Positions 14,877 to 37,202 are shown, numbered from the stretch's first letter. The stretch is DNA of 64,000 bases from an uncultured Candidatus Saccharibacteria bacterium (GCA_965230975.1 OZ246402.1:309304-373303), one strand, 5' to 3'. Translations and numbers: made by a program. Notes: generated by a model not told the origin, from the sequence alone.

Positions 14877-15329
14877 ATGATTGTAAAAGAACTAAACCTT
14901 GTCCATCAAGAAAACCTTGTAGTTGAAATTAAAGAAGACACAGAACTACTCTTTAAATATGTTGGTATTAAAGATACCCAATTTAAAACTAAGGTTACTT
15001 TTCTACATAAATTACCAAATATAAAATCTAGAATAAATATTAGAGCGGTAGTTTTTGATAATGCTAAATTTGATCTAGAAGGTATATTGCAAATAGATAA
15101 AGGAGCAACAGGTACGGATACTTATTTAAAAATAGATTGTTTGGTTGTTGGAGATAATTCTTTTGCAAGAGCAATTCCATCTTTGGAGATAAAAGAATCA
15201 GAAGTTAAAGGAGGTCACGGAGCGACTATAGGTTATATAGATGAATCCCAACTTAATTATTTATACTCCAAGGGTTTAAGTAAACATATTTCAGAACAGC
15301 TTGTAGTAGACGCCTTTATTAATTCCTAA
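14877..15329 (+). CDS. Mini SufB/SufD-like protein (C-terminal beta-helix/SufC-interaction domain only)
   Basis: 'VKGGHGATIGYIDESQLNYLYSKGLSKHISEQLVVDAFI' aligns with the SufD/SufB C-terminal motif (SHGATVGRIDDEQIFYLRSRGI...AF). The ORF is bounded upstream by an in-frame TAA at 14853, so it is only 150 aa. Confidence 0.6.
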   Translation: MIVKELNLVHQENLVVEIKEDTELLFKYVGIKDTQFKTKVTFLHKLPNIKSRINIRAVVFDNAKFDLEGILQIDKGATGTDTYLKIDCLVVGDNSFARAIPSLEIKESEVKGGHGATIGYIDESQLNYLYSKGLSKHISEQLVVDAFINS

Positions 15330-15378
15330 AAAGTAATATAATGCACTTACCTAACTTATTAAATTTTATTTTTAGCAT

Positions 15379-15891
15379 ATGTCAGATGTATCAAGTTCTC
15401 CTGTTCAACCAGTAAGCCAATCTACTAAAAAAAGTAATACTGGCAAGATTCTAATTGGATGTTGTTTAGTAATTTTAGTTTTGTTGTGCATGTGTTGTGG
15501 TGCAGTGTTTTTGCTTTTTGGAACAACAGCAACAACTGCCATGACAGTTTACAATAACGTACAAACATCATTAGTTAAAGTGTGTGATGGTCAAGAATCA
15601 GATTTAAGAAATTTTTACGATACAAGAACTACTCAAGAATTTAAGGCTCAAACATCTTATTCTCAATTTAAATCTTTTTATACAAACTATAAAGATATTA
15701 TTTTAGATTGCCAAGAATTAAAACAAGGCACTTTCTTTAATAACAAAATTAATGGGTTACAAATTAATATGGAAACAGTGAATGGAATACAAACACTTAG
15801 CGTACAGTATCCATCAAAATCTTACACTGTTAGTTTTCAATTTGTTCAACAATCTAACGATTGGAAAATTAACACTATTGAAATTAGGTAA
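15379..15891 (+). CDS. Hypothetical membrane-anchored protein (Pro/Val-rich N-tail, Cys-rich TM)
   Basis: 170 aa. 'SSPVQPVSQSTKKSNTGK' is followed by the TM segment 'ILIGCCLVILVLLCMCCGAVFLLF'. Confidence 0.5.
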   Translation: MSDVSSSPVQPVSQSTKKSNTGKILIGCCLVILVLLCMCCGAVFLLFGTTATTAMTVYNNVQTSLVKVCDGQESDLRNFYDTRTTQEFKAQTSYSQFKSFYTNYKDIILDCQELKQGTFFNNKINGLQINMETVNGIQTLSVQYPSKSYTVSFQFVQQSNDWKINTIEIR

Positions 15892-16050
15892 TCTATTATA
15901 ATAACTACTCATTGAAACTTTAGCGAATTTTTGGGATAATCCGTAGCAGATTTTTATTCGTATCCCAAGGTTGGTAGTTTTATATTATGGTAATCAATTT
16001 GCCAAACTAAAAAACTTACAACTTTTAACTTATTTACTTAAAACTTTAAT

Positions 16051-18198
16051 ATGGCAAGTACAGTAGACTATTCCAAGGTTAAGGACACAAAGTTCTATAG
16101 AAACATTGGAATTATTGCGCACGTAGATGCTGGTAAAACAACAACTACAGAAAGAATTCTTTTCTTTACAGGAAGAAAACACAAAACAGGAGAAGTTCAC
16201 GAAGGAGCAGCAGAAATGGACTTCATGGCTCAAGAAAGAGAAAGAGGAATTACAATCCAATCTGCAGCTACAACTGCTTTTTGGGAATTAAACGGTCACC
16301 CTTACAGAATTAACATTATTGATACACCCGGCCATGTTGACTTTACAGCAGAAGTAGAAAGATCTTTAAGAGTGTTAGATGGAGCAATCGTTGTATTCGA
16401 TGGAAAGATGGGTGTAGAACCACAATCTTCAAAGGTATGGTTCCAAGCAGAAAAATATAGAGTACCAAGAATGTGTTACGTAAATAAACTTGATAACATT
16501 GGTGCAGACTTTTACAAATCTTACGGTACAATTGTAGAACACTTGAGCGACCATGCTGTTCCAATTTCATTACCATTTGGCTTAGAAAACGATTTCAAAG
16601 GAATTATTGACTTAGTAAGAATGCAAGCTAGAGTTCATCAAGATGATGAAGGTAAAGTAGTAGATGTTATTGATATTCCAGAAGAATACAAAGCAAAAGC
16701 AGAAGAATACAGAACAAAATTGATCGAAGTTGTTGCAGATGTTGACGATGACATTGCAATGAAATACTTAGAAGGAGAAGAAATTTCTGCAGAAGAATTA
16801 GAAGTAGGGGTAAGAAAAGCAACATTGGCTTTGAAATTGTTCCCAGTAATGGCAGGTTCATCTTTGAAAAACAAAGGCGTTCAAGCAATGCTTGATAACG
16901 TTTGTAGGTACTTACCTTCCCCTCACGATAAATCATTTACAATTACAGATAAATCTACCGGAGAAGAAAAAATTTATAAAGACGAGGTTCCTGGTACAGA
17001 TCCAAGAACAGGTGAAATCATTACTAGAAAATTATCTGACACAGAACCATTTGCAGGTTTAGTATTCAAATTAGCTATTGACCCACATGTTGGTAACTTA
17101 TCTTTCTTTAGAGTTTACTCTGGTAAACTTCAATCTGGTAGTTATGTATATAACTCAACTACAGGCAATAAAGAAAGAGTAGGAAGAATTCTTTTGATGC
17201 ATGCTAACCACAGAGAAGAGGTTCAAGAGGTTAGAGCAGGAGATATTGCTGCAATTGTTGGTTTAAAAGATACAAAGACTGGAAATACAGTTTGTGATGA
17301 ATCTAAACAAATTAGATTAGAATCAATTGAATTCCCAGAACCAGTTGTGAACTTTGCTATTGAGCCAAAAACAAAATCTGACCAAGAAAAATTAGGTGTT
17401 GCATTAGGTAAGTTGGTTTCTGAAGACCCAACATTCAGAGCAAAAACAGATGAAGAAACAGGTCAAATTGTTATTTCAGGAATGGGAGAACTACATTTAG
17501 ACATTAAAGTAGATATTTTAAAAAGAGAGTACGGAATCGAAGTAGCTATGGGTAAACCTCAAGTAGCATACAGAGAAACTGTAGTTTCTGATGGTGAACA
17601 TAGAGAATTGTTAAAGAAGCAATCTGGTGGAGCTGGTCAATATGCAGATATTGCATTTAAGATTCACCCACAAGAGAGAGGTGCTGGATATAAGTTTATA
17701 GATAACATTAAAGGTGGAGCTATTCCAAGAGAATATATTCCAGCAATTGATAAAGGTATTCAAGATGCTCTAACAAATGGTCCATTAGGTGGATATCCAG
17801 TTGTAGATGTTGCTGTTGAAATTACAGATGGTTCGTACCACGAAGTTGACTCTAATACAGATACATTTAAAATTTGTGCTTACTATGGTTTCAAAAACTT
17901 AATGAAAGCCGCAAATCCAGTATTATTAGAGCCGATCATGGCAGTTACAATTAATGTTCCAGAAGAGCATGTTGGAGCTGTTACAGGTTATTTATCTTCT
18001 AAAAGAGGTATTATTAAAAACCTTTTACAAAGAGGTAAGACAAAAGAGCTTGTTGCAGAGGCACCTTTGGCAGAACTTTTTGGTTATGTTTCAGATTTAA
18101 GAAACTTAACATCTGGTACTGCTGCACCTAATATGGAACCTTCTCACTATGCAGAAGTTCCAAGAAATATTATGGAAAAAGTATTAGCTGCTAAATAA
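16051..18198 (+). CDS. fusA: Elongation factor G
   Basis: G1 'IAHVDAGKTTTTERILF', 'DTPGHVDF', and full-length domains II-V. 715 aa. Confidence 0.95.
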   Translation: MASTVDYSKVKDTKFYRNIGIIAHVDAGKTTTTERILFFTGRKHKTGEVHEGAAEMDFMAQERERGITIQSAATTAFWELNGHPYRINIIDTPGHVDFTAEVERSLRVLDGAIVVFDGKMGVEPQSSKVWFQAEKYRVPRMCYVNKLDNIGADFYKSYGTIVEHLSDHAVPISLPFGLENDFKGIIDLVRMQARVHQDDEGKVVDVIDIPEEYKAKAEEYRTKLIEVVADVDDDIAMKYLEGEEISAEELEVGVRKATLALKLFPVMAGSSLKNKGVQAMLDNVCRYLPSPHDKSFTITDKSTGEEKIYKDEVPGTDPRTGEIITRKLSDTEPFAGLVFKLAIDPHVGNLSFFRVYSGKLQSGSYVYNSTTGNKERVGRILLMHANHREEVQEVRAGDIAAIVGLKDTKTGNTVCDESKQIRLESIEFPEPVVNFAIEPKTKSDQEKLGVALGKLVSEDPTFRAKTDEETGQIVISGMGELHLDIKVDILKREYGIEVAMGKPQVAYRETVVSDGEHRELLKKQSGGAGQYADIAFKIHPQERGAGYKFIDNIKGGAIPREYIPAIDKGIQDALTNGPLGGYPVVDVAVEITDGSYHEVDSNTDTFKICAYYGFKNLMKAANPVLLEPIMAVTINVPEEHVGAVTGYLSSKRGIIKNLLQRGKTKELVAEAPLAELFGYVSDLRNLTSGTAAPNMEPSHYAEVPRNIMEKVLAAK

Positions 18199-18214
18199 GT
18201 TTAACTAAACTTTA

Positions 18215-18253
18215 AAACCCGCCGAAGAATTAAGTATTCGGCGGTTTTTTTTG
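18215..18253 (+). terminator. Rho-independent terminator after fusA
   Basis: acccgccgaa-(10 nt loop)-ttcggcggt followed by T8. Confidence 0.65.
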
Positions 18254-18354
18254 CTTTCATTTTATAATGACACTTATCTCATAGTAAAAACTAGCTTGAA
18301 GATAAATAAATTTAGGGAATATAATGCAATATTATAATTTTTTAAGAAATTAGC

Positions 18355-18681
18355 ATGTCATACGATGTAAGTTTTGAATTTTTAGAGCATAGTGCACATT
18401 CTACTGTTGAAGGATCAGTTTTTCGTTTTGCTAACAAACCAATTGAAAATGAGTTTGGGTCTCTTCTAGGTCAATTCCCAACACTAAAATCATCTTGGGA
18501 TCGATTAAGTATTGCCTTGGATTTATCAGAATATAATCTTGCACAAAAAAGTTTTAGAGATAATGTAGCAATTTTGGTAGATCAAAATTTATTATCTAGT
18601 GATTCTGCAGATTATTTAATTAGCATTCAAATACAACACAATTTGTTCACCCATCTGAGGACGAACTATAGATTCCAATAA
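18355..18681 (+). CDS. Hypothetical protein
   Basis: 108-aa ORF. No recognisable motif. Confidence 0.4.
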   Translation: MSYDVSFEFLEHSAHSTVEGSVFRFANKPIENEFGSLLGQFPTLKSSWDRLSIALDLSEYNLAQKSFRDNVAILVDQNLLSSDSADYLISIQIQHNLFTHLRTNYRFQ

Positions 18682-18708
18682 TATTATATTTATAAAAAGT
18701 AAAACTAT

Positions 18709-18957
18709 ATGGAAACTGCTAACGATGAAACAATTTATCAACATACTAATTTACCAGATACTCTAGCTGCTGATTTGATGAAATCTTTCTCCAGAGCTAG
18801 GGATCAATCATCTGCAGTAAAATTTTATAAACTTTGGCTCATGTATTCCGAAGTTTATCCAGAAAGTTATTTTGTTGGGTCATTTAACCTTGCTTTAGAT
18901 AAATTGGATAAAAAGTTTGGAATATTTAGTGCGGTAGCTAAAACAGAAGAAGCTTAA
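18709..18957 (+). CDS. Hypothetical protein
   Basis: 82-aa ORF, 27 nt downstream of the previous ORF. Confidence 0.4.
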   Translation: METANDETIYQHTNLPDTLAADLMKSFSRARDQSSAVKFYKLWLMYSEVYPESYFVGSFNLALDKLDKKFGIFSAVAKTEEA

Positions 18958-18961
18958 TTAC

Positions 18962-19417
18962 TTACATTTCTAAATATTGCTCGCTAATTCCATAGTTGGA
19001 GTTGTTTATCTTTAATAAAATGCACTCAATAAATTGAATATCATTTTCAATATCTATTAAACTTCTATCAAACCTGGTAGATTGCCCCTTTTTCATTCTC
19101 AAAATTGTAAGTCTTCGTTCTGTAGCTAATTTACGAGATAAAATTTGAAATCTTCTCAATATTTGATCAATAGACATATTTGATCCAATAGCTAATACCT
19201 CCTCGATTAACTGAATATGTTCATTAAGGATATGGATATTTGCGTTAAGACTATCACTCACATCGGGTGCATCATGATCAGTTTCCACTTGAGTTTGAAA
19301 GTTATCCCTAAGTCTTACAAACCCATCATGGAGTCTTATTAAATCAGTAAAGGGTAGGGAATTTGCAATACCATCTTTTAATGTAAGGCTAGAAGTACTA
19401 GTTAGGTCTAAAGCCAT
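18962..19417 (-). CDS. Hypothetical protein (last gene of a minus-strand DUF2207-patatin operon)
   Basis: 151-aa ORF, 67 nt downstream of the patatin gene on the same strand. No recognisable motif. Confidence 0.45.
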   Translation of the reverse strand: MALDLTSTSSLTLKDGIANSLPFTDLIRLHDGFVRLRDNFQTQVETDHDAPDVSDSLNANIHILNEHIQLIEEVLAIGSNMSIDQILRRFQILSRKLATERRLTILRMKKGQSTRFDRSLIDIENDIQFIECILLKINNSNYGISEQYLEM

Positions 19418-19484
19418 TTATTGTGTCTTAAATGCTTAGAATCTTACCACTAACTTAACTCAAGTAAATACCTTATAGAAATTT

Positions 19485-20330
19485 TTAAGTATTAATTTTG
19501 TTTTGAAGTTTTTTTATTGATCTATTAATAAAATAGAAGATAGGGCTTTTTATATTTAATTTTTCTTTAATAAATGGCATATTTTCAATAGTCTTGTTAT
19601 AAGCATTATCAATAAGTTCTGGAAATTTATCGTAAGAAAACGGCCCAGCATCTAACCCTAAATTATCTATATGAATATCTAATGGGTGTGCCAAAGAATC
19701 CACGGCTCTATAATTTTCTGCAGCAATTAAAATAGGATCTAAAAATCTAGATAAAAGGCTGGTATGATTTTCAAGGGAATGCATTTTGCCGGCTGATAGG
19801 CCCATAACAACGTCTGCACCCTTACGTCTTAAAAAATCTGCACCATATCCAGCCGTAATGTCTCCATCAATATAATATTGACCTTCAATTTCTATTGGTG
19901 GCATGTAAAATGGGAACGCACAGGTTGCCATAATCAATGGTTTAAGTAATCCTTTTTCAAATATTTCAACTCTTCTGGTATTTAAATTAGTTGCTTGAAT
20001 ATATACAGGTATTTTCAAATCCTCAAGTTTAATATCTTTTAATATAGGCTCTATTTCAATTTCTGCTTTATGTATTCCTAATAGAGTTAATTCTTTTAAA
20101 GATTCTAAAGAGATCATATTTTTTAGTTGAAACCTACTTATAATCTCTATTATCTCTTTCTCAGGTAAGTTCATTCCATAAAGCACACCAATATTTGCAC
20201 CCATGCTAGATCCAATAATGTAATCAATCTGAATGTCTTCTTCTCTTAGTGCTTTAAATACGCCAACATAACCAGTAGCTCTGCCGGCACCACCTCTTAA
20301 CGAAAGTCCTAACTTTTTTTGATTTCGCAT
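19485..20330 (-). CDS. Patatin-like phospholipase (RssA-like)
   Basis: Oxyanion 'LRGGAGRATG', nucleophile elbow 'GSSMG', and catalytic Asp in 'IDGDITAGYG'. Confidence 0.8.
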   Translation of the reverse strand: MRNQKKLGLSLRGGAGRATGYVGVFKALREEDIQIDYIIGSSMGANIGVLYGMNLPEKEIIEIISRFQLKNMISLESLKELTLLGIHKAEIEIEPILKDIKLEDLKIPVYIQATNLNTRRVEIFEKGLLKPLIMATCAFPFYMPPIEIEGQYYIDGDITAGYGADFLRRKGADVVMGLSAGKMHSLENHTSLLSRFLDPILIAAENYRAVDSLAHPLDIHIDNLGLDAGPFSYDKFPELIDNAYNKTIENMPFIKEKLNIKSPIFYFINRSIKKLQNKINT

Positions 20331-20399
20331 AAAATAATCGAGAGTATTATTCTAATTTACCCGAAGTAGAGAATGAGTTCAATGATTTTGTTATGAAGA

Positions 20400-22424
20400 T
20401 TACCAACCTCCACTAGATCCACCTCCGCCACCTCCTCCAGAGAAGCCTCCAAAAGATCCACCTCCACCACTCCAACCAGAGCCTGAAGATGATTGAGTAG
20501 GGAAATTGAATGCTGTTGTAGTGGTTGTTGTAAAACTTCTTGCAAAAGAGCTAAAAAAGTAAGCATTGTAAATTGCATTTACATTAGACCCTTCATACCA
20601 ATCAGGTGCCTTGTCGTACAAACCTTCAAACTTTTTTGCCCACTCATCCTCAATTTTAAAAACAATTGCGTAAGATAAGTATTTTTCAAACTCTTCTGGC
20701 CCTAAGTTTTGTAATCTGAATCTTTCTGCAGTATGCAAATACATTTTAAAGCCCAAAATCTTTGCATACACTTGGCTACCAATTTCGGTTTTCGCAGGCA
20801 TAAATTTAGCAAAAATAGCTAATGCTAATCCTAATATTGCAAAGGGTAGAGCAATAGTAAACACGGTAAAGTAACCCAATAACTCTGTTAATATTCCACT
20901 TAAAATAAAAAGCCCAACTACAGAAAAAGCTAATAAAAATATTCCAAAGCCTACGTATTTTGCAATTGTACTTTGTGGTGACTCTTTAAAGTAGCCCTTA
21001 GTAACCATCTCTTTATAAATAGAAGATACAATTGCATTGTATTTATAAGGAAAAGTCTTAATCATCTCTTTTGTTGTAGTAGACTCTTTCCCGTTAAAAA
21101 TAGCTTGTAAAATATCTCCTTCAATTTTATCTAGACCATCTTTTTTATCTGTCCTAATCAATTCGTATTCTTTTTGTCCAACTGTTATCCCTAAAACTTT
21201 TTCCTGTTCTTTATCTTTAATTTTTAAATAACCTCTATAAGCTAAGTCAATAATTGTACCAGCAATATCTTCTTTATCTACACTTTCATCTTTTAAAGAA
21301 CCAAGTAAATAAGGCCTAACTCCTTCAGGTGGTGTAAATTCTGGGATTATTGTCTTTGGCATATTTATATCTTTACCTCGTTTTCTTAAATGTCTATAAG
21401 CCAGAATAATAAATAAAGGAATAAAGAAAATTCCAAGTGCAAAGAATATTTGGTTAGCTTTATCTATCAGAGATAGTAAAAAAGATTGTTCCAAGTTATA
21501 GCTTCTATCAATTGATTCGCTTTCTTTTATACTAAACTTTTCTGTTATAGTGTTAAACCCAGTCCTAGCAATTTCCAATGTATGATCTCCTGGGGTTATA
21601 CCTCTTAAAGTGCCGCTCGTAGAATTTTGAGCAACCAAATACCCATCTAGGTATAAATTCCCTCCTAGTGGGGGATTGGTAATTTGATAATTCATTTTTC
21701 CTGGTAATTTAACCTCACCTTTCTGAAAAGGATAAGTTAAAGTTATTGCTCCATAAGAAGCTAAATTTTTTAAATTCAGTGTAAGCGTATCAGATTTGGC
21801 ACCACTAATAAGAATATCTGTAAATGGCAAAGAAGTTAGTACTTGAAGATTATCCTCATTAACTTTCACCCCATCTGGAAAAGTTATGTTAATTTTAGAT
21901 GTTTGAGTTACCCCACCTCTATCTTCTGGTAATAAATCCCAATAAAAATATGGGCGATTCTCAACTTCTTGTATTCCGCCAAACACAACATAATTAATTA
22001 TCCACCCAACTTTATAGTTGCTTACATCTTTCCCATCGGGAAAGATTTCCCACTCAACTCGATAATAAGTGCTACCGTTTTTTTCAGTGGTATAAAAATT
22101 TAGATCATCAAATGGAATTTGGGAACCATCAAATTTTGTAACATTTGTAACTTCTATATGGTCAAACCCTCCGCAGGTTAAGCCTTGTTCTTCGCAAATT
22201 GCCAAACTAGCACTATCTACCAATGTGATATCTCTTCTTAAACCATGGAATTCTCCGTTGAATGTGTATTCTGCTGTTTCAGTGACATTAAAAGTGGAGT
22301 CTTTATTGATTGTAATATCTACATTTTGGGATATTGCCTGTTGAGTAAGTGCAAATGTCTTGTTAGGAAAATATATAAACAAAAATCCAATAATTAGGAA
22401 TGTAAATGTAACTAAGTTTTTCAT
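20400..22424 (-). CDS. DUF2207-like membrane protein (signal peptide, ~300-aa ectodomain, TM, cytoplasmic loop, further TMs, Gly-rich C-terminal tail)
   Basis: 674 aa. The architecture and the terminal 'SGSGWSGGGGSFGGFSGGGGGGGSSGGW' tail are typical of DUF2207-family predicted membrane proteins. Confidence 0.55.
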   Translation of the reverse strand: MKNLVTFTFLIIGFLFIYFPNKTFALTQQAISQNVDITINKDSTFNVTETAEYTFNGEFHGLRRDITLVDSASLAICEEQGLTCGGFDHIEVTNVTKFDGSQIPFDDLNFYTTEKNGSTYYRVEWEIFPDGKDVSNYKVGWIINYVVFGGIQEVENRPYFYWDLLPEDRGGVTQTSKINITFPDGVKVNEDNLQVLTSLPFTDILISGAKSDTLTLNLKNLASYGAITLTYPFQKGEVKLPGKMNYQITNPPLGGNLYLDGYLVAQNSTSGTLRGITPGDHTLEIARTGFNTITEKFSIKESESIDRSYNLEQSFLLSLIDKANQIFFALGIFFIPLFIILAYRHLRKRGKDINMPKTIIPEFTPPEGVRPYLLGSLKDESVDKEDIAGTIIDLAYRGYLKIKDKEQEKVLGITVGQKEYELIRTDKKDGLDKIEGDILQAIFNGKESTTTKEMIKTFPYKYNAIVSSIYKEMVTKGYFKESPQSTIAKYVGFGIFLLAFSVVGLFILSGILTELLGYFTVFTIALPFAILGLALAIFAKFMPAKTEIGSQVYAKILGFKMYLHTAERFRLQNLGPEEFEKYLSYAIVFKIEDEWAKKFEGLYDKAPDWYEGSNVNAIYNAYFFSSFARSFTTTTTTAFNFPTQSSSGSGWSGGGGSFGGFSGGGGGGGSSGGW

Positions 22425-22606
22425 ATTTTGATATTTAAATTACAATCATTTTACCCCTTTTAGTTTATCAAACAAAGTTATTTGTATTGTGAAAATTGGA
22501 TTGCTAGGACTGGCAGTTACTAAAAAAAATGATATAATCCTATCGCATTTAATAAGTTGGGGTAATTTAATAGGAATTTTAATTACACTAACTTAAAACT
22601 ACAAAT

Positions 22607-22691
22607 GCCGAGGTGGTGGAATTGGTAGACACCCTAGTCTTAGGAACTAGTTCCCGTCAAGGGAGTGCAGGTTCGAGTCCTGTCCTCGGTA
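22607..22691 (+). tRNA. tRNA-Leu (anticodon UAG), class II with a long variable arm
   Basis: The 7-bp acceptor stem GCCGAGG pairs with CCTCGGT. D-arm GGAATTGGTAGA. Anticodon stem CTAGT/ACTAG with loop CTTAGGA. Extra arm TTCCCGTCAAGGGAGT. T-arm GCAGGTTCGAGTCCTGT. Discriminator A. Confidence 0.85.
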
Positions 22692-22712
22692 TGTTAATTT
22701 AAAATTCTTTCC

Positions 22713-24110
22713 ATGAAACTTATAAATACCATTCAAGATTCTTATTATGGAGTTGTTTCCTACATATATCAATTCCCCTCTGGCTTAAGAGTATTTCACG
22801 CAATTAATAAAAATACAGTAGATTTTAAACTAAGTATAAACTTTAAAGCAGGCATGCTTTTAGAAGATCAAATAAATGTACCTAGGGGTACAGCACATTT
22901 TCTAGAGCATCTATTAGTATATGCGTCTAATAAAACATTTGACAGTAGGACTGAAATGGATAAGTTTAGTTTTGGTAATAGTAAAAGACCTGCGTTTTGG
23001 TTTAACGCATCTTCAGGTTACAGATTTATTACTTTTGATGCGATTGGACACAATAAAGGTGCTGATAGAATGTTTACATTGTTAAACGCTCAGTTAGACT
23101 ACGATTTAGAAAAGTTATTTGAGGCCAGTGAAATAGAGAAGCAAAGATCAATCATTATTAGCGAATTAAAGCGAAAACCAAGAGAGGACATGGACCCAGG
23201 TTTGCTGTACGACAAATTGTTCATGAATAGCAGTAACCCTCTTTTTGCACAACGATCTATAGGAACTCTTGAAAGTGTTAGTTCAATTACAAAAGATCAC
23301 TTAAGTCTTTTCTTGCAAACATTTTTTAGTGTAAATAATGTGGTGGTGGGAATAGAGTCAAATTCAAAGTTGACAAAGAATCTTAAAGATAAATTACAAA
23401 AGCTAGATAATACCTTTTCTAGTTATAAAAATTCATTTAAGACCGATTATAAATTTAAGCCACTAGATTTTGATTTTAGATATGGACATTTTAAAGATAT
23501 TCATAAACAAGATGTTTTTTGTAGCTTTAATTTATTCCACGATACCGATCCAACAAAAGAAGTTGATTATAAAAAGAATGCACAAAGATTTATGGTTTTG
23601 GATTTAGTTGGAAGAGTAATGAATGAATATTTAAGAGAGCAAAAGATGTTAATTTATGGCGCAAAAACATTTAATCAGTTGCTATTTCCGGGTGTTTTAA
23701 ATAAAGGTTTTAATTTTAATGTTCCTGCAGAAAAGTTGCTTGAAACCTTTGATGCTATTGAGTATGTAATAACAAAATATGCAAAAGAATTTATAAACTC
23801 TTCTAGCGGAGAGGAATTTTTTGAAAGCATGAAAAGTAAATATATTTTCAAAAGAGATACTTTGTTACCAGATACCTACACAGAAGATAGAGCATGTGAT
23901 ATTTTGAATGGCTATTTTATGAATAATGATCAAGATTTGTTTGAGAAGGAGATTCTTAAAATGACAAAAAGTGATTTGATTAAATCATTTGAAAGCCACT
24001 TTAAATTACCAAGTGGAATTTGGCTAGTATCTTCTTTAGAAGACAGTGAAGTCTTAAAGATATTTGAGACTTCTAAGCTTTATTCTTTTCTTAAAAATAG
24101 AAAGCATTAG
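22713..24110 (+). CDS. M16-family (insulinase/pitrilysin-like) zinc peptidase
   Basis: Inverted zinc-binding motif HxxEH in 'GTAHFLEHLL' near the N-terminus. The size (465 aa) fits M16. Confidence 0.6.
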   Translation: MKLINTIQDSYYGVVSYIYQFPSGLRVFHAINKNTVDFKLSINFKAGMLLEDQINVPRGTAHFLEHLLVYASNKTFDSRTEMDKFSFGNSKRPAFWFNASSGYRFITFDAIGHNKGADRMFTLLNAQLDYDLEKLFEASEIEKQRSIIISELKRKPREDMDPGLLYDKLFMNSSNPLFAQRSIGTLESVSSITKDHLSLFLQTFFSVNNVVVGIESNSKLTKNLKDKLQKLDNTFSSYKNSFKTDYKFKPLDFDFRYGHFKDIHKQDVFCSFNLFHDTDPTKEVDYKKNAQRFMVLDLVGRVMNEYLREQKMLIYGAKTFNQLLFPGVLNKGFNFNVPAEKLLETFDAIEYVITKYAKEFINSSSGEEFFESMKSKYIFKRDTLLPDTYTEDRACDILNGYFMNNDQDLFEKEILKMTKSDLIKSFESHFKLPSGIWLVSSLEDSEVLKIFETSKLYSFLKNRKH

Positions 24111-28692: not shown

Positions 28693-29886
28693 ATGGCAGA
28701 ATTCGTAAGAAGCAAGCCACATGTAAATGTTGGTACTTTGGGTCACATCGACCACGGTAAGACTACTTTAACTGCAGCATTAGTTGCATATTCTCAAAGA
28801 AAGGGTTGGCAAAACTCTGGCAAGTCATATTCTGACATTGCAAAGGGAGGAATCGCAAGAGCTGGTTCAAATAAAATTGTAACAGTTGCATCTTCTCACG
28901 TTGAATACGAATCCGAGACAAGACACTATGCACACATCGACTGCCCAGGTCACAAAGACTATATCAAGAACATGATTACAGGAGCAGCTCAAATGGATGG
29001 AGCTATTTTGGTTGTATCTGCAGAAGATGGACCTATGCCTCAAACTAAAGAGCACTTGTTATTAGCTTATCAGGTAGGTGTAAAGCACATCGTTGTGTTC
29101 ATCAATAGATTTAAAGATGACATGGATGCTGATTTACTAGAATTAATCAAAGAAGAAGTAAAAGATAACTTAAAGAAATATGGTTACGATGCAGAAAAAG
29201 TTCCATTCGTAGTAGGATCTGCTTTCTACGGTACAACTGGAGAAAAAGACGGAGACGAAACAATGGCTGCATTACTAAAAGCAATGGACGAAACAATCCC
29301 AATGCCAGAAAGACCATTAGACAAACCATTCTTAATGCCAGTTGAAGATGTATTCTCTATTGAAGGTAGAGGTACTGTAGCAACAGGTAGAATTGAAAGA
29401 GGAAAAGTACACGTTAACGATGTTGTTTCTCAAATTGGTTTAATGGAAGGTGCTAAAGATTTGACAATCACAGGTGTAGAAATGTTCAAGAAGCAATTAC
29501 AAGAAGGACAAGCTGGTGACAACGTTGGTTTGTTAATCAGAGGTATCAAAAGAGAAGATATTGAAAGAGGTCAAGTATTAGCAGCTAAAGGTAGCATTAA
29601 AGCTCAAACAGAATTTAAAGCAAAACTTTATGTTCTAAGTAAAGATGAAGGTGGAAGACACACTGGATTCAGAACTGGATATAGGCCACAATTCTATATT
29701 AGAACAGCAGATGTAACAGGAGAAGTTTTACTTGCAGACGAAAACGCATTAGTATTACCAGGTGATAATGCTGATGTTGTTGTTAAACTACAAACACCAG
29801 TAGCTTTGGAACCTCAAATGTCCTTTGCTATTAGAGAAGGTGGTAAGACAGTAGGAGCAGGTGTTGTTACAGAAGTTATTAAATAA
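28693..29886 (+). CDS. tuf: Elongation factor Tu
   Basis: '[14 protein letters not shown]', 'DCPGHKDY', 'NKFKDD'-like region. 397 aa. Confidence 0.95.
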
Positions 29887-29894
29887 AAAATTGA

Positions 29895-29925
29895 AATCGG
29901 TCCCGACAAGTCGGGACCGATTCAT
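29895..29925 (+). terminator. Strong hairpin (terminator/attenuator) between tuf and rpsJ
   Basis: 12-bp stem atcggtcccgac-aa-gtcgggaccgat with a weak T tract. It is only 33 nt before the rpsJ start, so read-through is likely. Confidence 0.45.
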
Positions 29926-29958
29926 CTAATAATTAAAAATGCTCTTTAAATAATTAAT

Positions 29959-30261
29959 ATGCAAAACAAAATCAGAGTAAAAATTAAAGGTTATGATTAC
30001 AGAGTGGTTGATAAAGCTACTCAAGAGATTTGTAAATCAGTGGTAGAAACAGGTGCTAAAATCAGAGGTCCTGTACCATTACCAAATAGAATTTGGAAAA
30101 TGGCAATTCACAGAGGCCCACATATTGATGCAAAGTCTAAAGAGCATTTCGGATTAATAGAACATTTAAGATTGGTTGATATTTTAGAACCAAACGCAAA
30201 AACTATAGAATCATTAACTCACATGCAATTACCAGCAGGTGTTGATGTTGAAATTAAGTAA
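29959..30261 (+). CDS. rpsJ: 30S ribosomal protein S10
   Basis: 'IRVKIKGYDYRVVDKATQEI...GPVPLP'. Confidence 0.95.
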   Translation: MQNKIRVKIKGYDYRVVDKATQEICKSVVETGAKIRGPVPLPNRIWKMAIHRGPHIDAKSKEHFGLIEHLRLVDILEPNAKTIESLTHMQLPAGVDVEIK

Positions 30262-30269
30262 ATAATATT

Positions 30270-30872
30270 ATGAAAACATTTATAGCTAAAAAAATAGGAA
30301 TGGTTCAAGTCTTTACAGAAAAGGGAGACTCAAAACCAGCAACAGTTTTAGATATTTCTGAAAATTATGTTGCAAGAACAATTGAAGTTGATGGAAAAAA
30401 ATTCATAGAAGTAGGTAAGGACAAAGTAAAACATCCAACAAAATCAGAACTTGGAAGTTATAAAGACTTAAAGTTTGTACCTAGACAAAAAGCTAGAGAA
30501 GAATCTGATTCAACAGATGTTCAAGTTGGAACACAATTAGAAGCAACTTTGATCTCTGTAGGTGACACAGTAGAAGCTACTGGTACTACAAAAGGAAAAG
30601 GTTTTGCAGGTGTAGTAAAGAGGTGGGGTTTTAAAGGTGGTCCTAGAACTCATGGTCAATCAGATAGAGAAAGAGCACCTGGATCAATTGGTAATAGAAC
30701 AATCCCAGGTAGGGTTTACAAAGGAAAGAGAATGGGTGGACATATGGGTGTAACTACTAAAACTATTAAAGGTTTAAAAGTTTTAATGGTTAACTCTGAA
30801 TCTAAGACAATAGTAGTAGATGGTAGCGTAATGGGCCCAAAGAATTCATATTTAGTAATTAGAAAGAAGTAA
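30270..30872 (+). CDS. rplC: 50S ribosomal protein L3
   Basis: 'KKIGMVQVFTEKGDSKPATVL'. 200 aa. Confidence 0.9.
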   Translation: MKTFIAKKIGMVQVFTEKGDSKPATVLDISENYVARTIEVDGKKFIEVGKDKVKHPTKSELGSYKDLKFVPRQKAREESDSTDVQVGTQLEATLISVGDTVEATGTTKGKGFAGVVKRWGFKGGPRTHGQSDRERAPGSIGNRTIPGRVYKGKRMGGHMGVTTKTIKGLKVLMVNSESKTIVVDGSVMGPKNSYLVIRKK

Positions 30873-30876
30873 TATC

Positions 30877-31515
30877 ATGAATTTAGATATCTTTGATTTA
30901 AAAGCAAAAAAAATCGGTGATTTTGAAATCTCAAACGAGTATAAAGATGCAAAGGTAAACAATGCAGTTTTATCTCAATATGTTTATATCTACCTTTCAA
31001 ATCAAAGAGAGGGTAATGCTCATACAAAAGACAGATCAGAAGTAAGTGGAGGTGGTAAAAAACCTTGGAAACAAAAAGGAACTGGTAGAGCTAGAGTAGG
31101 ATCATCTAGATCTCCTATTTGGACAAAGGGAGGAATCACATTTGGTCCAAGAAATGAAGTAAATTACAAAAGAAGAACAACAAAAAAATTTAGAGCAGTA
31201 GCTTTTAGAAATGCACTATCTTACTTAATTCAGTCTGAAAATGTAAGAGTTATTAAAGAAGCTGATATCAAGTCAGAAGAAAAAATGACTCAAAAAGCAG
31301 CTGAAATATTAGTAGCATTCAATAGCCCTAAAAAAGTAACTATAATTACAAGTGAAAAAAGAGATTCTTTACTTAAAGCTTTCTCAAACATTAAGAATGT
31401 AAATGTAGTTACAATATCAAAAATTAACCCGTATTTACTGCTTAATGGCGGAGTAGTTTTCTTTGAAGAAGCTGCTTTAAAACATTTTGAAGAAACATGG
31501 GGATTAACAAAATAA
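30877..31515 (+). CDS. rplD: 50S ribosomal protein L4
   Basis: 'GGGKKPWKQKGTGRARVGSSRSPIWTKGGITFGP'. Confidence 0.9.
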   Translation: MNLDIFDLKAKKIGDFEISNEYKDAKVNNAVLSQYVYIYLSNQREGNAHTKDRSEVSGGGKKPWKQKGTGRARVGSSRSPIWTKGGITFGPRNEVNYKRRTTKKFRAVAFRNALSYLIQSENVRVIKEADIKSEEKMTQKAAEILVAFNSPKKVTIITSEKRDSLLKAFSNIKNVNVVTISKINPYLLLNGGVVFFEEAALKHFEETWGLTK

Positions 31516-31531
31516 TATTAAGATTAATAAA

Positions 31532-31813
31532 ATGATAGTTTTAAAGAAACCGATAGTAACAGAAAAGAGTTTGAGAGAGTATAAAGAAAACAGAGTAGTA
31601 ACTTTTTCTGTTGACTTAAATGCTACAAAAATTCAAATTCAAAAAACAGTTGAAAATGTATATGCTGTTAAAACACTAGAGGTTAGAGTAGTTAATAGAC
31701 TAGGTAAGGTAAAATATAGTAGATTTTCAAAAAAGAAAAGTAAATTGCAAGATCAAAGAATTGCATATATTAAATTAGATAATAATCAAAAAATAGATAT
31801 TTTTGAACAATAA
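31532..31813 (+). CDS. rplW: 50S ribosomal protein L23
   Basis: 93 aa, 'VLKKPIVTEKS'. Position between rplD and rplB. Confidence 0.85.
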   Translation: MIVLKKPIVTEKSLREYKENRVVTFSVDLNATKIQIQKTVENVYAVKTLEVRVVNRLGKVKYSRFSKKKSKLQDQRIAYIKLDNNQKIDIFEQ

Positions 31814-31824
31814 GGTTATATACC

Positions 31825-32688
31825 ATGGCACTAAAGAAATTTAACGCAACAACACCAGGTTCACGACACGCAATATTAATCGATAGATCAGAATTGCATG
31901 ATGGAAGACCATATTTACCATTGGTAAAAAGCCTTAGAAGCAAAGGTGGTCGAAATAATCAAGGTAGAGTAACAATGAGGCATCAAGGTTCTGGTGCAAA
32001 AAAACAATATAGAGTTATTGACTTTAAAAGAGATAATCATGGTGTAGAAGGAACTATAGAAAGGGTAGAGTACGATCCAAACAGAACAGCATTTATTGCA
32101 TTAGTAAAGTTTGCAAATGGTGACAGAAGATATATTCTTTCCCCAGATGGACTTAAAGCTGGCGATAAAGTAATGAGTGGTGAAGAAGCTCCTGTATCAG
32201 TTGGAAACGCATTACCATTAAAAAGCATTCCTCAAGGTACAATGGTACATGCTGTTGAGATGTGGCCAGAAAAAGGTGCATCTTTAGCTAGATCAGCTGG
32301 TACATCTGTTCAAGTGATGGGTGGAGACCAAGGATATGTTCAGCTAAGATTACCTAGTGGAGAAATTAGATTAGTGAGAGAGACTTGCTATGCTACAATA
32401 GGCACTGTAAGTAATCCTGATAATAAAAATGTAAAATTAGGTAAAGCAGGTAGAAGAAGAAATAAAGGGGTAAGACCTTCAGTTAGAGGAGTGGCAATGT
32501 CAATCAAGCACCCTCACGGAGGAGGACAGGGTAAGGGTGGTAGACACGGTACAGGTGGACCTAAGAAGGATAGATGGGGTAATCCAGTAGGAACAAGAAC
32601 AAGAAAAGGAAAGAACGTAAATAATAAATTTATAATTAGAAGAAGACAAGAAAAGAATAAATTTAAAGGTTTTAAAACAATTATATAA
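31825..32688 (+). CDS. rplB: 50S ribosomal protein L2 (with a basic C-terminal extension)
   Basis: 'SGEIRLV', 'GVAMSIKHPHGGGQGK'. 287 aa. Confidence 0.95.
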   Translation: MALKKFNATTPGSRHAILIDRSELHDGRPYLPLVKSLRSKGGRNNQGRVTMRHQGSGAKKQYRVIDFKRDNHGVEGTIERVEYDPNRTAFIALVKFANGDRRYILSPDGLKAGDKVMSGEEAPVSVGNALPLKSIPQGTMVHAVEMWPEKGASLARSAGTSVQVMGGDQGYVQLRLPSGEIRLVRETCYATIGTVSNPDNKNVKLGKAGRRRNKGVRPSVRGVAMSIKHPHGGGQGKGGRHGTGGPKKDRWGNPVGTRTRKGKNVNNKFIIRRRQEKNKFKGFKTII

Positions 32689-32706
32689 AAAGTAATAAGT
32701 AAAATT

Positions 32707-33009
32707 ATGTCAAGAAGTTTAAAAAAAGGACCTTATGTTAATGAAAGATTATTAGCTAAGGTAGTAAAAGCAAAACAAACAGGAGACAAAAAAGCAATTA
32801 AGACTTGGTCAAGAGACTGTACTATTTCTCCTGAAATGGTAGGTTTTAACTTCGAGGTTCATAATGGAAAATACTTTAACAAAGTTTTTGTAACAGAGTC
32901 TATGGTTGGACACAAGTTGGGAGAATTTTCTGTAACTAGGAAATTCACAGGTCATAGCAAGAAAGGAAAAATAGCTAAAGCAACAGGGGCAACAGGTAGA
33001 GCAGCATAA
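32707..33009 (+). CDS. rpsS: 30S ribosomal protein S19
   Basis: '[11 protein letters not shown]...HNGKYF'. Confidence 0.9.
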
Positions 33010-33041
33010 TTTTTAAATAAATTGTATTAGTAATTAATAAT

Positions 33042-33512
33042 ATGAAAGTCAAAGCAGTAGCAAAAAGAGTGGGAGTGTCAGCAATTAAAGCTAGAATAAT
33101 CGCAGATACTGTAAGAGGTATGAATGCTAAAGATGCAGTAGGTATTTTAACATATGTATCAAAGGGATCTGCATTGCCTGTTAAGAAAGTTGTTGAAAGT
33201 GCAATTGCAAATGCTAAGACTAACTACAATTTAAATGAGGATACCCTTGTTATAAGTGAAATTAGGGTAGATAAGGGCCCAATTGCTAATATAAATGCAA
33301 AAAGATTTGAAACTTTAGGTAAGGGCGGTTATGCTAGATTCGATAGAAAATACTGTCATATTACAGTTTTATTAGAGGAACGAAGTTCTACTGCAAAGGT
33401 AAAAAAGACTAAAACAATAGATTCAAAAAAATCAATTGTTGCTGATTCTACATCAGAAGACTTAGAAAAGAAGAGCGTTAAAAAAAGCAAAACTGCTAAA
33501 AAAGCAGAGTAA
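33042..33512 (+). CDS. rplV: 50S ribosomal protein L22 (Lys-rich C-terminal extension)
   Basis: 'AKRVGVSAIKARIIADTVRGMNAKDAVGIL'. Confidence 0.9.
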   Translation: MKVKAVAKRVGVSAIKARIIADTVRGMNAKDAVGILTYVSKGSALPVKKVVESAIANAKTNYNLNEDTLVISEIRVDKGPIANINAKRFETLGKGGYARFDRKYCHITVLLEERSSTAKVKKTKTIDSKKSIVADSTSEDLEKKSVKKSKTAKKAE

Positions 33513-33614
33513 AACAAGAGATTTGATGGTATAATCTCATGCACTTTTAAATGGTAGGTTAAAGGTTAAAAGCTAGACTTTTAATCTCTAATTTGTAATT
33601 TAATATAGACTAAT

Positions 33615-34271: not shown

Positions 34272-34294
34272 TATAAAAATTTATATAGTATAAA

Positions 34295-34702
34295 ATGTTG
34301 CAACCAAATCAAAGAAAATACAAAAAAGAGCAAAGAGGAAGAATGAAAGGAATTGACTTTAGAGGTTCCGAGCTTGCTTATGGAGAGTTTGGAATTCAAT
34401 CACTTGATAGAGGTTGGCTTAAAGCAAGAGAAATAGAAGCAGCAAGAAAAGCTATTGTAAACTACACAAATAGAAAAGGTAAGTTATGGGTTAAAGTATT
34501 CCCTCACAAACCTTATACAAAAAAGTCAGATGAAGTTGTAAGAGGTAGCGGTAAAGGAGAAGTTTCTTACTATGTTTCTGTAATAAGACCAGGTAGAATT
34601 TTATTCGAACTAGGTGGTATTCCTGAGGAAACAGCTAAAGAAGCATTAAGACTTGCAACAGCTAAGTTATCTTTAAAAACAAGAATTATTAGTAAAAATT
34701 AA
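34295..34702 (+). CDS. rplP: 50S ribosomal protein L16
   Basis: 'MLQPNQRKYKKEQRGRMKG'. Confidence 0.95.
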   Translation: MLQPNQRKYKKEQRGRMKGIDFRGSELAYGEFGIQSLDRGWLKAREIEAARKAIVNYTNRKGKLWVKVFPHKPYTKKSDEVVRGSGKGEVSYYVSVIRPGRILFELGGIPEETAKEALRLATAKLSLKTRIISKN

Positions 34703-35155: not shown

Positions 35156-35165
35156 AATAAATAAT

Positions 35166-35549: not shown

Positions 35550-35574
35550 TAATAATTAAATTATATTAATAAAA

Positions 35575-35898: not shown

Positions 35899-35903
35899 AT
35901 AAT

Positions 35904-37200: not shown

Positions 37201-37202
37201 AC

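What the first reader, a model, noticed from the sequence alone, without database searches (positions are those of the whole stretch)
18355..22424. Accessory block between the fusA terminator and tRNA-Leu: DUF2207-like membrane protein, patatin-like phospholipase and a small unknown ORF in one minus-strand operon, plus two small plus-strand unknowns
The 4-kb region between the fusA terminator (18215-18253) and tRNA-Leu (22607) contains no translation genes. On the - strand are a 674-aa DUF2207-like polytopic protein, a catalytically intact patatin-like phospholipase (GGxR oxyanion, GSSMG, DGD), and a 151-aa unknown, with gaps of 69 and 67 nt. On the + strand are two unknown ORFs of 108 and 82 aa. 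Patatin-like lipases are recurrent effectors of anti-phage and toxin systems. tRNA genes are common integration sites. Together these make the block a candidate defense, toxin or membrane-remodelling island.
Basis: partly seen in the sequence, partly recalled or inferred. Interest (0 to 1): 0.5.

Follow-up and report, generated by a model that had tools for sequence, protein, structure and literature searches.

The report
Native lipase gene beside conserved membrane protein
The 4-kb block is not a mobile island: it is an inherited stretch of a Candidatus Dojkabacteria chromosome in which a core membrane protein sits between tRNA-Leu and fusA. A lineage-restricted cytoplasmic patatin lipase and three species-specific small genes fill a junction whose content varies between relatives.

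Summary
The patatin catalytic motifs are intact and conserved in eight orthologues.

The "island at a tRNA" reading fails.
- The DUF2207 protein has more than 100 full-length orthologues. Every named one is from Candidatus Dojkabacteria, apart from one Deltaproteobacteria-labelled record.
- The order tRNA-Leu(TAG), DUF2207, then convergent fusA recurs in relatives whose DUF2207 is only 39-45% identical.
- There is no integrase, no repeat of the tRNA 3' end, and no GC or codon-usage anomaly.
- There is no similarity to phage, plasmid or viral sequence, and no defence partner.
- The block lies on the 5' side of the tRNA.

What varies is the content between DUF2207 and fusA:
- an alpha/beta-hydrolase plus patatin pair;
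- hydrolase alone;
- a methyltransferase-like gene;
- arrays of orphan ORFs;
- in a conspecific strain, a HigBA-like pair inserted between patatin and orf151.

The window has patatin without the hydrolase, plus three orphans. orf151 has no relative beyond about 90% identity among 1.8 billion representatives.

The most likely function is a cytoplasmic RssA/PlpD-type phospholipase or lysophospholipase that turns over membrane lipid in a bacterium unable to make its own. This is inferred, not shown. The find is ordinary, with one modest lead.

The parts
16051..18198 (+). fusA (EF-G, 715 aa). It is the conserved anchor on one side of the variable junction.
   Evidence: It is 75-100% identical at protein level to fusA in L001, L006, L007, L012, L013, L014 and L016.
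18214..18252 (+). Intrinsic terminator of fusA: an 8-bp CCGCCGAA/TTCGGCGG stem, a 10-nt loop and a T8 run.
   Evidence: Sequence. The fold is -14.3 kcal/mol with z = -2.65. It is identical in strain L006.
18296..18325 (+). Promoter-like site (TTGAAG-18-TATAAT) upstream of orf108.
   Evidence: a consensus match only. The number of such sites in the region is below shuffle expectation.
18355..18681 (+). orf108: a species-restricted orphan, acidic (pI 5.2), with no transmembrane segment.
   Evidence: No family hit. Its cluster has only 2 members. Residues 1-91 are 94.5% identical in L006, but the C-terminal 17 residues are changed there by a 1-nt indel. Codon usage is native.
18709..18957 (+). 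orf82: a species-restricted orphan (pI 5.0).
   Evidence: 96% identical in L006. Its cluster has 2 members. No family hit. Codon usage is native.
18962..19417 (-). orf151: an ORFan predicted to be a soluble four-helix bundle. It is the last gene of the minus-strand run.
   Evidence: Only two relatives, at 90% identity or more, among 5.8 billion proteins. Only itself among 1.84 billion representatives by full phmmer. dN/dS 0.16 against L006. AlphaFold2 pLDDT 68.5 with four helices. No significant PDB fold match.
19485..20330 (-). Patatin-like phospholipase of the RssA/PlpD type, 281 aa, with no signal peptide and no transmembrane segment.
   Evidence: Pfam PF01734 3e-22. Catalytic residues are invariant in 9 orthologues. 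The closest solved structure is PlpD 5FQU, E 2.7e-21. No hydrophobic segment. dN/dS 0.09.
20400..22424 (-). Core DUF2207 envelope protein. Predicted order: signal peptide or N-terminal transmembrane segment; beta-sandwich ectodomain; PEGA domain; transmembrane helix; cytoplasmic winged-helix-like domain; transmembrane hairpin; Gly-rich tail.
22606..22692 (+). tRNA-Leu(TAG), divergent from DUF2207. It is a conserved backbone neighbour, not an attachment site for this block.
   Evidence: The same tRNA lies upstream of DUF2207 in L001/L003, L012, L016 and L017. There is no second copy of its 3' end in the window.

Best explanation
The block is a vertically inherited part of a Candidatus Dojkabacteria (Patescibacteria/CPR) chromosome.

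Backbone. The DUF2207 envelope protein is a core gene. It sits in a conserved backbone: ...RNase HII - large protein - SufBD-like - fusA, then convergent DUF2207 - tRNA-Leu(TAG) ... HTH - TruB - VanY - tuf - S10 operon.

Variable junction. The convergent junction between fusA and DUF2207 is a permissive slot where genes are gained and lost.
- In the sub-clade that includes the window, the slot held a tightly coupled pair of cytoplasmic lipid or ester hydrolases: an alpha/beta-hydrolase followed 1-8 nt later by the patatin.
- The window's lineage has lost the hydrolase and kept the patatin.
- It has also acquired three species-specific orphan genes.

Mechanism (inferred). The patatin is a soluble cytoplasmic Ser-Asp dyad acyl hydrolase of the RssA/PlpD type. 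It would deacylate phospholipids or lysophospholipids at the inner face of the membrane. That would give fatty-acid and lysolipid turnover in an organism that cannot synthesise lipids. It is probably co-transcribed with DUF2207. Physical or functional coupling with DUF2207 is possible but not required.

What is shown: gene content, motifs, synteny, the variability of the slot, and the absence of mobility and defence hallmarks.
What is inferred: substrate, cellular role, and operon status.
For: Synteny:
- L001/L003 (fusA 85%, patatin 50%, DUF2207 42% identical) read tRNA-Leu(TAG) - DUF4352 - DUF2207 - abhydrolase - patatin - convergent fusA.
- L007 (fusA 94%) reads DUF2207 - abhydrolase - patatin - 2 orphans - fusA.
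- L012, L013, L014 and L016 keep DUF2207 convergent with fusA but carry different cargo between them.
- tRNA-Leu(TAG) lies upstream of DUF2207 in 5 lineages.

DUF2207 is core: 119 hits, of which more than 100 are full-length at 33-60% identity. Every named one is from Dojkabacteria, apart from one Deltaproteobacteria-labelled record.

The locus is native: GC is flat at about 31%; codon usage is native for all five ORFs; dN/dS is 0.09 for patatin.

No mobility signals: no repeat of the tRNA 3' end, no flanking direct repeats, and no phage, plasmid or viral matches.

Enzyme: Pfam Patatin 3e-22. The motifs are invariant. Best matches are RssA and PlpD 5FQU. There is no signal peptide or transmembrane segment.

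Hydrolase pair: the gaps between abhydrolase and patatin are 1 nt (L001) and 8 nt (L007). The abhydrolase orthologues are 44-51% identical to one another.

Literature: Patescibacteria lack lipid synthesis, and their lipid uptake and breakdown mechanisms are unidentified (PMC11665869). Lysolipids are enriched in CPR (PMC7242380). Lysophospholipase genes have been proposed as a way of sourcing fatty acids (PMC12455944).
Against: - No biochemical or expression data exist. The substrate is unknown.
- The RssA model score is 71 bits against a cutoff of 272, so this is not an RssA equivalogue.
- More distant patatin orthologues (36-43% identical: L005, L008, L010) are not next to DUF2207. In L004 the contig ends 78 nt upstream of the patatin, so it is uninformative. 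The adjacency may therefore be an accident of the slot and not functional coupling.
- The alpha/beta-hydrolase of relatives matches no specific lipase family.
- Only about 10 neighbourhoods were sampled.
- The window is 64 kb, so the rest of the genome's lipid metabolism was not examined.
Confidence: 0.6

Rival explanations
1. Defence or abortive-infection island. On this reading the patatin is an effector lipase, as in CBASS CapV and similar systems. It would be acquired horizontally at tRNA-Leu and triggered by infection to destroy the membrane. The small ORFs would be sensors or regulators.
For: PADLOC gives weak hits to phospholipase effector models (6.3e-8 and 1.1e-5), and NCBIfam gives CBASS_lipase at 4.2e-5. 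The slot is variable, and a HigBA-like pair has inserted there in strain L006. Variable hotspots that accumulate toxin-antitoxin genes often also collect defence genes (general knowledge).
Against: - The CBASS lipase score is 22.9 bits against a cutoff of 200.
- No cyclase, sensor, ATPase or any other PADLOC hit was found among the five ORFs.
- The patatin is a bare catalytic domain of 281 aa.
- Its only conserved partner is an alpha/beta-hydrolase, not a signalling enzyme.
- There is no integrase, no att repeat, and native composition.
- The block is on the 5' side of the tRNA.
- The small ORFs are not conserved with the patatin: absent in L001 and unrelated in L007.
Confidence: 0.07
2. Toxin-immunity or host-attack module. 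The patatin would be exported to lyse host or competitor membranes, and orf151 would be its cognate immunity or inhibitor protein.
For: Patescibacterial phospholipases have been proposed to compromise host envelopes (PMC11665869). orf151 lies immediately downstream and is predicted to be a four-helix bundle. Its best fold hits, which are not significant, are four-helix enzyme inhibitors (pectin methylesterase inhibitor, E 0.18).
Against: - The patatin has no signal peptide, no transmembrane segment and no secretion-associated domain.
- orf151 has no homologue next to the patatin in L001 or L007.
- In L006 a 770-bp toxin-antitoxin insertion separates orf151 from the patatin.
- The fold match is not significant.
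- No secretion-system genes are adjacent.
Confidence: 0.1
3. Dedicated lipid-salvage module. DUF2207, the alpha/beta-hydrolase and the patatin would act together. The envelope-spanning DUF2207 protein would capture or sense exogenous lipid, and its cytoplasmic GOLPH3-like domain would recruit the two hydrolases to process incoming acyl lipids.
For: - The gene order DUF2207, then abhydrolase, then patatin, all on one strand with short gaps, occurs in two lineages whose patatins are 50% identical to the window's. The abhydrolase is retained next to DUF2207 in a third lineage, L012.
- A PLDc_N gene lies just upstream of DUF2207 in L016.
- Lipid acquisition in Patescibacteria is unexplained (PMC11665869).
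Against: - Most Dojkabacteria DUF2207 orthologues have no lipase neighbour.
- More distant patatin orthologues are elsewhere in the genome.
- The window itself has lost the hydrolase.
- The fold resemblances are at 9-13% identity, and which residues aligned is not known.
- The one DUF2207 knockout studied, in S. mutans, gave stress and biofilm phenotypes and no defined function (PMC10457818).
Confidence: 0.18

Closest known systems
RssA/YchK and PlpD-type bacterial patatin-like phospholipases (COG1752; PlpD patatin domain, PDB 5FQU)
   Same: A single patatin domain of about 260-300 aa. It has a Gly-rich oxyanion loop (GGAxR), a GxSxG nucleophile and a DG[x] aspartate. The best NCBIfam hit is RssA (7.9e-20), and the best solved relative is PlpD (2.7e-21), aligned over residues 5-247.
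   Different: The score is far below the RssA equivalogue cutoff (71 against 272 bits). The POTRA and beta-barrel parts of PlpD are absent. The C-terminal region of about 100 aa is specific to a small clade of 8 orthologues in 5.8 billion proteins. The genomic partner is an alpha/beta-hydrolase and DUF2207, not rssB.
DUF2207 family membrane proteins (for example S. mutans SMU.243; often paired with LemA)
   Same: Both Pfam domains are above cutoff. The size of about 630-690 aa, the topology and the Gly-rich C-terminal tail agree. A LemA-DUF2207 pair is seen in one Dojkabacteria relative, L015.
   Different: No LemA was detected in the 64-kb window. An extra PEGA domain is present. In this class the gene is anchored between tRNA-Leu(TAG) and fusA. 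The function of the family is unknown: the S. mutans knockout showed only stress-tolerance and biofilm phenotypes (PMC10457818).
CBASS CapV-type patatin effectors
   Same: The patatin catalytic fold. There are weak matches to the PADLOC phospholipase effector and NCBIfam CBASS_lipase models.
   Different: 22.9 bits against a cutoff of 200. There is no adjacent CD-NTase or any other defence gene, and the genomic position is conserved.
tRNA-associated genomic islands
   Same: The block is adjacent to a tRNA gene, and part of its gene content varies between relatives.
   Different: There is no integrase, no att duplication and no compositional deviation. The block is on the 5' side of the tRNA. 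The tRNA-DUF2207 adjacency is ancestral for the class.

Membership tests
Patatin-like phospholipase (PF01734) | Profile score above the Pfam gathering threshold | tested here: met
   80.2 bits against a cutoff of 27.7, E 3e-22, residues 9-160.
Patatin-like phospholipase (PF01734) | Gly-rich oxyanion loop, GxSxG serine and DG[x] aspartate (the Ser-Asp dyad) | tested here: met
   RGGAGR at 12-17, GSSMG at 40-44, DGD at 155-157. G13, G14, G40, S42, G44, D155, G156 and D157 are invariant in 9 orthologues.
Patatin-like phospholipase (PF01734) | Acyl-hydrolase activity | not testable with these tools
   This needs an enzyme assay.
RssA equivalogue (NCBIfam NF007623) | Score at or above the curated cutoff of 272 bits | tested here: not met
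   71.2 bits. It is the best-scoring family, but only over residues 4-186.
CBASS CapV lipase (NF041079) | Score at or above the curated cutoff of 200 bits | tested here: not met
   22.9 bits, E 4.2e-5.
CBASS CapV lipase (NF041079) | Adjacent CD-NTase or other signal-generating gene | tested here: not met
   No PADLOC hit for the other four ORFs. The neighbours are fusA, a tRNA, an M16-like gene, an HTH gene and TruB.
DUF2207 family | N-terminal (PF09972) and C-terminal (PF20990) domains above cutoff | tested here: met
   43.4 bits against 24.4, and 129.5 bits against 33.
DUF2207 family | LemA partner gene adjacent, which is frequent but not obligatory | tested here: not met
   tblastn with the L015 LemA finds nothing below E = 1 in the window. 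LemA is present next to the orthologue in L015.
tRNA-integrated genomic island | Integrase or recombinase gene | tested here: not met
   None of the five ORFs and none of the flanking genes hit such families.
tRNA-integrated genomic island | Direct repeat of the tRNA 3' end at the far boundary | tested here: not met
   The 25-nt 3' end occurs once in 64 kb, allowing up to 3 mismatches. No flanking direct repeats were found.
tRNA-integrated genomic island | Deviant base composition or codon usage | tested here: not met
   GC is 0.31-0.35 across the block against about 0.31 for the window. Codon log-odds are 0.23-0.40, within the range of the other bona fide genes scored.
tRNA-integrated genomic island | Presence or absence as a unit among relatives | tested here: not met
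   DUF2207 and the tRNA are conserved together across the class. Only the genes between DUF2207 and fusA vary, and they vary piecemeal.
Toxin-immunity pair (patatin plus orf151) | Strict co-occurrence of the immunity gene with the toxin gene | tested here: not met
   There is no orf151 homologue in L001 or L007. In L006 it is separated from the patatin by a toxin-antitoxin insertion.
Type II toxin-antitoxin pair (orf108 plus orf82) | Match to known toxin or antitoxin families | tested here: not met
   No Pfam, NCBIfam, PADLOC or PHROGs hit at E below 0.04.

The most novel reading that the evidence does not exclude
DUF2207, the alpha/beta-hydrolase and the patatin could form a dedicated lipid-salvage apparatus in a subset of Dojkabacteria. 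The DUF2207 protein has an ectodomain that resembles OST1 and a "nutrient-binding" protein, and a cytoplasmic domain that resembles GOLPH3. On this reading it captures or senses exogenous host lipid and positions two cytoplasmic acyl hydrolases to process it. That would be a first concrete candidate for how a Patescibacterium handles scavenged membrane lipid. It would also give DUF2207, a widespread family of unknown function, a lipid-related role.
Probability: 0.15. Interest if true: 0.65.

Novelty: new member of a known kind. Interest (0 to 1): 0.27.

Why it matters
Mainly as a correction. A patatin gene next to a tRNA in a reduced genome looks like a defence island, but here it is native backbone plus a permissive convergent junction.

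Two modest leads remain.
- The fusA/DUF2207 junction is a recurrent site of gene gain and loss in Dojkabacteria: hydrolases, toxin-antitoxin pairs and arrays of orphan genes. It is a convenient place to study how ORFans arise in CPR genomes.
- A coupled pair of cytoplasmic hydrolases (alpha/beta-hydrolase and patatin) sits downstream of a core envelope protein. This gives a testable candidate for lipid turnover in bacteria whose lipid uptake and breakdown pathways are still unidentified (PMC11665869).

Tried and rejected
- Looking up the window's own patatin by exact sequence found nothing. Its homologues gave the contexts instead.
- Scans of genome and metagenome contigs with the patatin alignment returned only 1 and 3 loci. 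The clade is rare, so a broad census was not possible this way.
- No patatin relative was found in the viral-contig collection. The whole block has no blastn match to phages or plasmids.
- orf151: the word-indexed search, full phmmer over 1.84 billion representatives, a single-sequence AlphaFold2 model and a Foldseek search of the PDB gave only a generic four-helix bundle. The weak Syntaxin_2 Pfam hit (E 0.076) was rejected as noise.
- All-against-all BLASTP of slot cargo from eight loci found no similarity between the window's orphans and the orphans of other lineages. The idea that orf151, the 118-aa ORF of L007 and the 111-aa ORF of L012 are positional homologues could not be supported.
- Rfam found nothing in the block other than the tRNA.
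- A profile of the DUF2207 alignment against PDB sequences matched only Gly-linker noise. The isolated cytoplasmic domain hit only DUF2207_C in Pfam, with no sequence-level GPP34/GOLPH3 match.
- The alpha/beta-hydrolase of relatives could not be assigned to a specific family. All NCBIfam hits are far below cutoff.
- An att site for the Replic_Relax element beside tRNA-Leu in L001 was sought, but none lies within the 6 kb held.

Full report
**Observation**

- orf108 lies at 18355-18681 (+) and orf82 at 18709-18957 (+).
- orf151 lies at 18962-19417 (-).
- A 281-aa ORF lies at 19485-20330 (-) and a 674-aa ORF at 20400-22424 (-).
- The gaps on the minus strand are 69 and 67 nt.
- fusA ends at 18198. 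A hairpin plus T8 terminator follows (-14.3 kcal/mol, z = -2.65).
- tRNA-Leu(TAG) lies at 22606-22692 (+).

Pfam confirms the Patatin domain (3e-22), both DUF2207 domains (5.4e-11 and 2.2e-37) and a PEGA domain (1e-4).

The patatin keeps its oxyanion loop, GSSMG and DGD. These residues are invariant across nine orthologues that are 36-98% identical.

The three small ORFs match nothing in Pfam, NCBIfam, PADLOC or PHROGs. They are still probably real genes.
- Each is in the best of its six frames, with codon log-odds of 0.23-0.36 bits per codon. Bona fide genes of the window score 0.23-0.44.
- All three are retained in a conspecific strain.
- orf151 has dN/dS 0.16. orf108 and orf82 give 0.32 and 0.38, but from only 9 and 5 substitutions.

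**Organism and relatives**

The window comes from a 1,193,217-bp NCBI contig. Its DUF2207 protein has 119 hits. More than 100 of them are full-length (about 660-700 aa) at 33-60% identity. Those that carry a name are almost all Candidatus Dojkabacteria, with one Deltaproteobacteria-labelled record.

The patatin is rare by contrast. It has eight orthologues (36-98% identical) among 5.8 billion proteins. Below that there is a sharp drop to generic patatins at about 30% identity or less. Scans found one locus in GTDB genomes, a Dojkabacteria MAG, and three in JGI metagenomes.

Contexts recovered for homologues, with tblastn mapping and tRNA scans:

| Locus | Identity to window | Gene order |
|---|---|---|
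| Window | - | fusA> orf108> orf82> <orf151 <patatin <DUF2207 tRNA-Leu(TAG)> |
| L006 | fusA 100%, patatin 97.5% | Same, plus a ~770-bp Gp49/HTH (HigBA-like) pair inserted exactly between the patatin stop and orf151 |
| L007 | fusA 94%, patatin 78%, DUF2207 83% | DUF2207 - alpha/beta-hydrolase - patatin - two unrelated orphans - fusA |
| L001/L003 | fusA 85%, patatin 50%, DUF2207 42% | tRNA-Leu(TAG) - DUF4352 - DUF2207 - alpha/beta-hydrolase - patatin - fusA |
| L012 | DUF2207 45% | tRNA-Leu(TAG) - DUF2207 - 192-aa membrane protein - alpha/beta-hydrolase - 111-aa orphan - fusA - SufBD-like |
| L013 | DUF2207 44% | DUF2207 - 179 aa - ten small orphan ORFs - fusA |
| L016 | DUF2207 43% | tRNA-Leu(TAG) ... 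PLDc_N - DUF2207 - four unknowns - fusA - HigBA-like pair |
| L014 | DUF2207 39%, complete genome AP024679 | DUF2207 - methyltransferase-like 269 aa - fusA - SufBD-like |
| L017 | DUF2207 36% | tRNA-Leu(TAG) - DUF4352 - DUF2207 - TruB - HTH; fusA is elsewhere |
| L015 | DUF2207 35% | LemA - DUF2207, in a different context |

The wider backbone is shared between the window and these loci. It runs L19 - HIT - RNase HII - two small genes - a large protein - SufBD-like - fusA, and HTH - TruB - VanY - tuf - S10.

So DUF2207, its divergent tRNA-Leu(TAG) and the convergent fusA are ancestral neighbours. What differs among genomes is the cargo between DUF2207 and fusA.

**Mobility and foreignness tests**

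- GC is flat and codon usage is native.
- The 25-nt 3' end of the tRNA occurs only once in the window, even with three mismatches allowed.
- No flanking direct repeats stand out.
- No integrase or recombinase domain is present.
- There are no matches to phages, plasmids or viral contigs.
- The block lies on the 5' side of the tRNA. Elements that target tRNA genes usually lie on the 3' side (established knowledge).
- In relative L001, Replic_Relax and HTH_36 genes do sit on that 3' side.

The island hypothesis is therefore rejected for the block as a unit.

**What the parts are**

*Patatin.* It has no signal peptide and no hydrophobic segment. Its best NCBIfam model is RssA, at 7.9e-20 but 71 bits against a cutoff of 272. 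The CBASS lipase model scores only 22.9 bits against 200. PADLOC gives only weak matches to generic phospholipase effectors and nothing for the neighbours. The closest solved structure is the patatin domain of P. aeruginosa PlpD, aligned over residues 5-247. It is under strong purifying selection (dN/dS 0.09).

In L001 and L007 the patatin follows an orthologous alpha/beta-hydrolase by 1 and 8 nt. The hydrolases are 44-51% identical to one another and carry a GYSFGG nucleophile elbow. This suggests a translationally coupled hydrolase pair. The window lacks that hydrolase anywhere in its 64 kb, so its lineage probably lost it after splitting from L007.

*DUF2207.* The AlphaFold2 model built on 81 sequences is confident (pLDDT 86.2).
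- A PEGA/transthyretin-like domain follows, then a transmembrane helix.
- The model ends with a transmembrane hairpin and a Gly-rich tail.

These are resemblances at 9-13% identity. They are leads, not tests. At sequence level nothing beyond DUF2207_C is found. The only experimental study of the family, S. mutans SMU.243, reports stress-tolerance and biofilm phenotypes and no mechanism (PMC10457818).

*orf151, orf108 and orf82.* All three are acidic, soluble and confined to this species.
- orf151 is predicted to be a four-helix bundle (pLDDT 68.5) with no significant fold match.
- They have no counterparts in L007, L001 or the other slots.
- orf108's last 17 residues differ between the two strains because of a 1-nt indel.

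**Mechanism**

The best-supported reading is a native cytoplasmic Ser-Asp acyl hydrolase acting on membrane phospholipids or lysophospholipids. It is probably co-transcribed with the core envelope protein DUF2207.

This fits the biology of Patescibacteria. They lack lipid biosynthesis, are enriched in lysolipids, and have no identified lipid uptake or breakdown pathway (PMC11665869, PMC7242380). Alpha/beta-hydrolase lysophospholipases have been suggested to supply them with fatty acids (PMC12455944).

The enzyme class and its localisation are shown by sequence. The substrate, the role and any coupling to DUF2207 are inferred.

Coupling is weakened by three facts.
- Most DUF2207 orthologues have no lipase neighbour.
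- More distant patatin orthologues lie elsewhere in their genomes.
- The slot accepts unrelated cargo.

**Rivals**

- A defence effector is unlikely, for the reasons given under the mobility tests and the patatin description.
- A toxin-immunity pair is unlikely. orf151 does not co-occur with the patatin, and a toxin-antitoxin insertion separates them in a conspecific strain.
- A secreted host-attacking lipase is unlikely without any export signal.
- A dedicated DUF2207-hydrolase lipid-salvage module is the most interesting reading the evidence does not exclude (about 15%).

**Verdict**

The island and defence interpretation is not supported. The accessory nature of the patatin and the orphans is supported.

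The block contains a new member of known kinds: an RssA/PlpD-type patatin and a DUF2207 protein. They sit at a variable convergent junction of a CPR chromosome. Interest is low to moderate.

Noticed in passing
L006 998-1636 (corresponds to window ~19418-19484): A conspecific strain (fusA 100% identical at protein level) carries a ~770-bp Gp49 (HigB-like) plus HTH (HigA-like) toxin-antitoxin pair. It is inserted exactly in the 67-nt gap between the patatin stop and the orf151 start, and it is absent from the window. A similar Gp49/HTH pair sits on the other side of fusA in L016.
   Followed up: partly
L001 1952-4482 (3' side of tRNA-Leu at 6074-6160): In a relative, genes with Replic_Relax and HTH_36 domains lie on the 3' side of the same tRNA-Leu(TAG). 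That is the side opposite the DUF2207 block. This may be a real integrated or plasmid-derived element. No repeat of the tRNA 3' end was found within the 6 kb held.
   Followed up: partly
window 22713-24110 (+): The 465-aa ORF on the 3' side of tRNA-Leu has only a sub-threshold Peptidase_M16 match (E 2.5e-4). tblastn finds no counterpart in any of the related loci. The 3' side of the tRNA is therefore also variable between relatives.
   Followed up: partly
L013 10663-14681: Ten small orphan ORFs (84-182 aa) on one strand fill the DUF2207-fusA junction in one relative. Three of them (123, 126 and 137 aa) are weakly similar to one another (E 4e-5 to 2e-3), which suggests a tandem paralogue array.
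   Followed up: partly
window 14877-18198 and 28693-39252: fusA is not in a classical str operon. Upstream of it are a truncated SufBD-like 150-aa gene and a 170-aa membrane protein, while tuf and the S10 operon lie about 10 kb downstream. The SufBD-like/fusA adjacency is conserved in L012 and L014.
   Followed up: partly
window 18628-18681; L006 2467-2520: A 1-nt indel changes the last 17 residues of orf108 between two nearly identical strains. A minus-strand terminator-like hairpin (18666-18645) lies at that spot. It could terminate the transcript that runs from DUF2207 through orf151, which must otherwise read antisense into orf82 and orf108.
   Followed up: no
L006 5224-5919: The conspecific strain has a 231-aa NUDIX gene between the 169-aa membrane protein and fusA. 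The window has only a 160-nt gap there.
   Followed up: no
window 20407-20481: Two imperfect 36-nt direct repeats, 39 nt apart, encode the Gly/Ser-rich C-terminal tail of DUF2207. Many tail positions are at least 90% conserved across the 81 aligned sequences.
   Followed up: no
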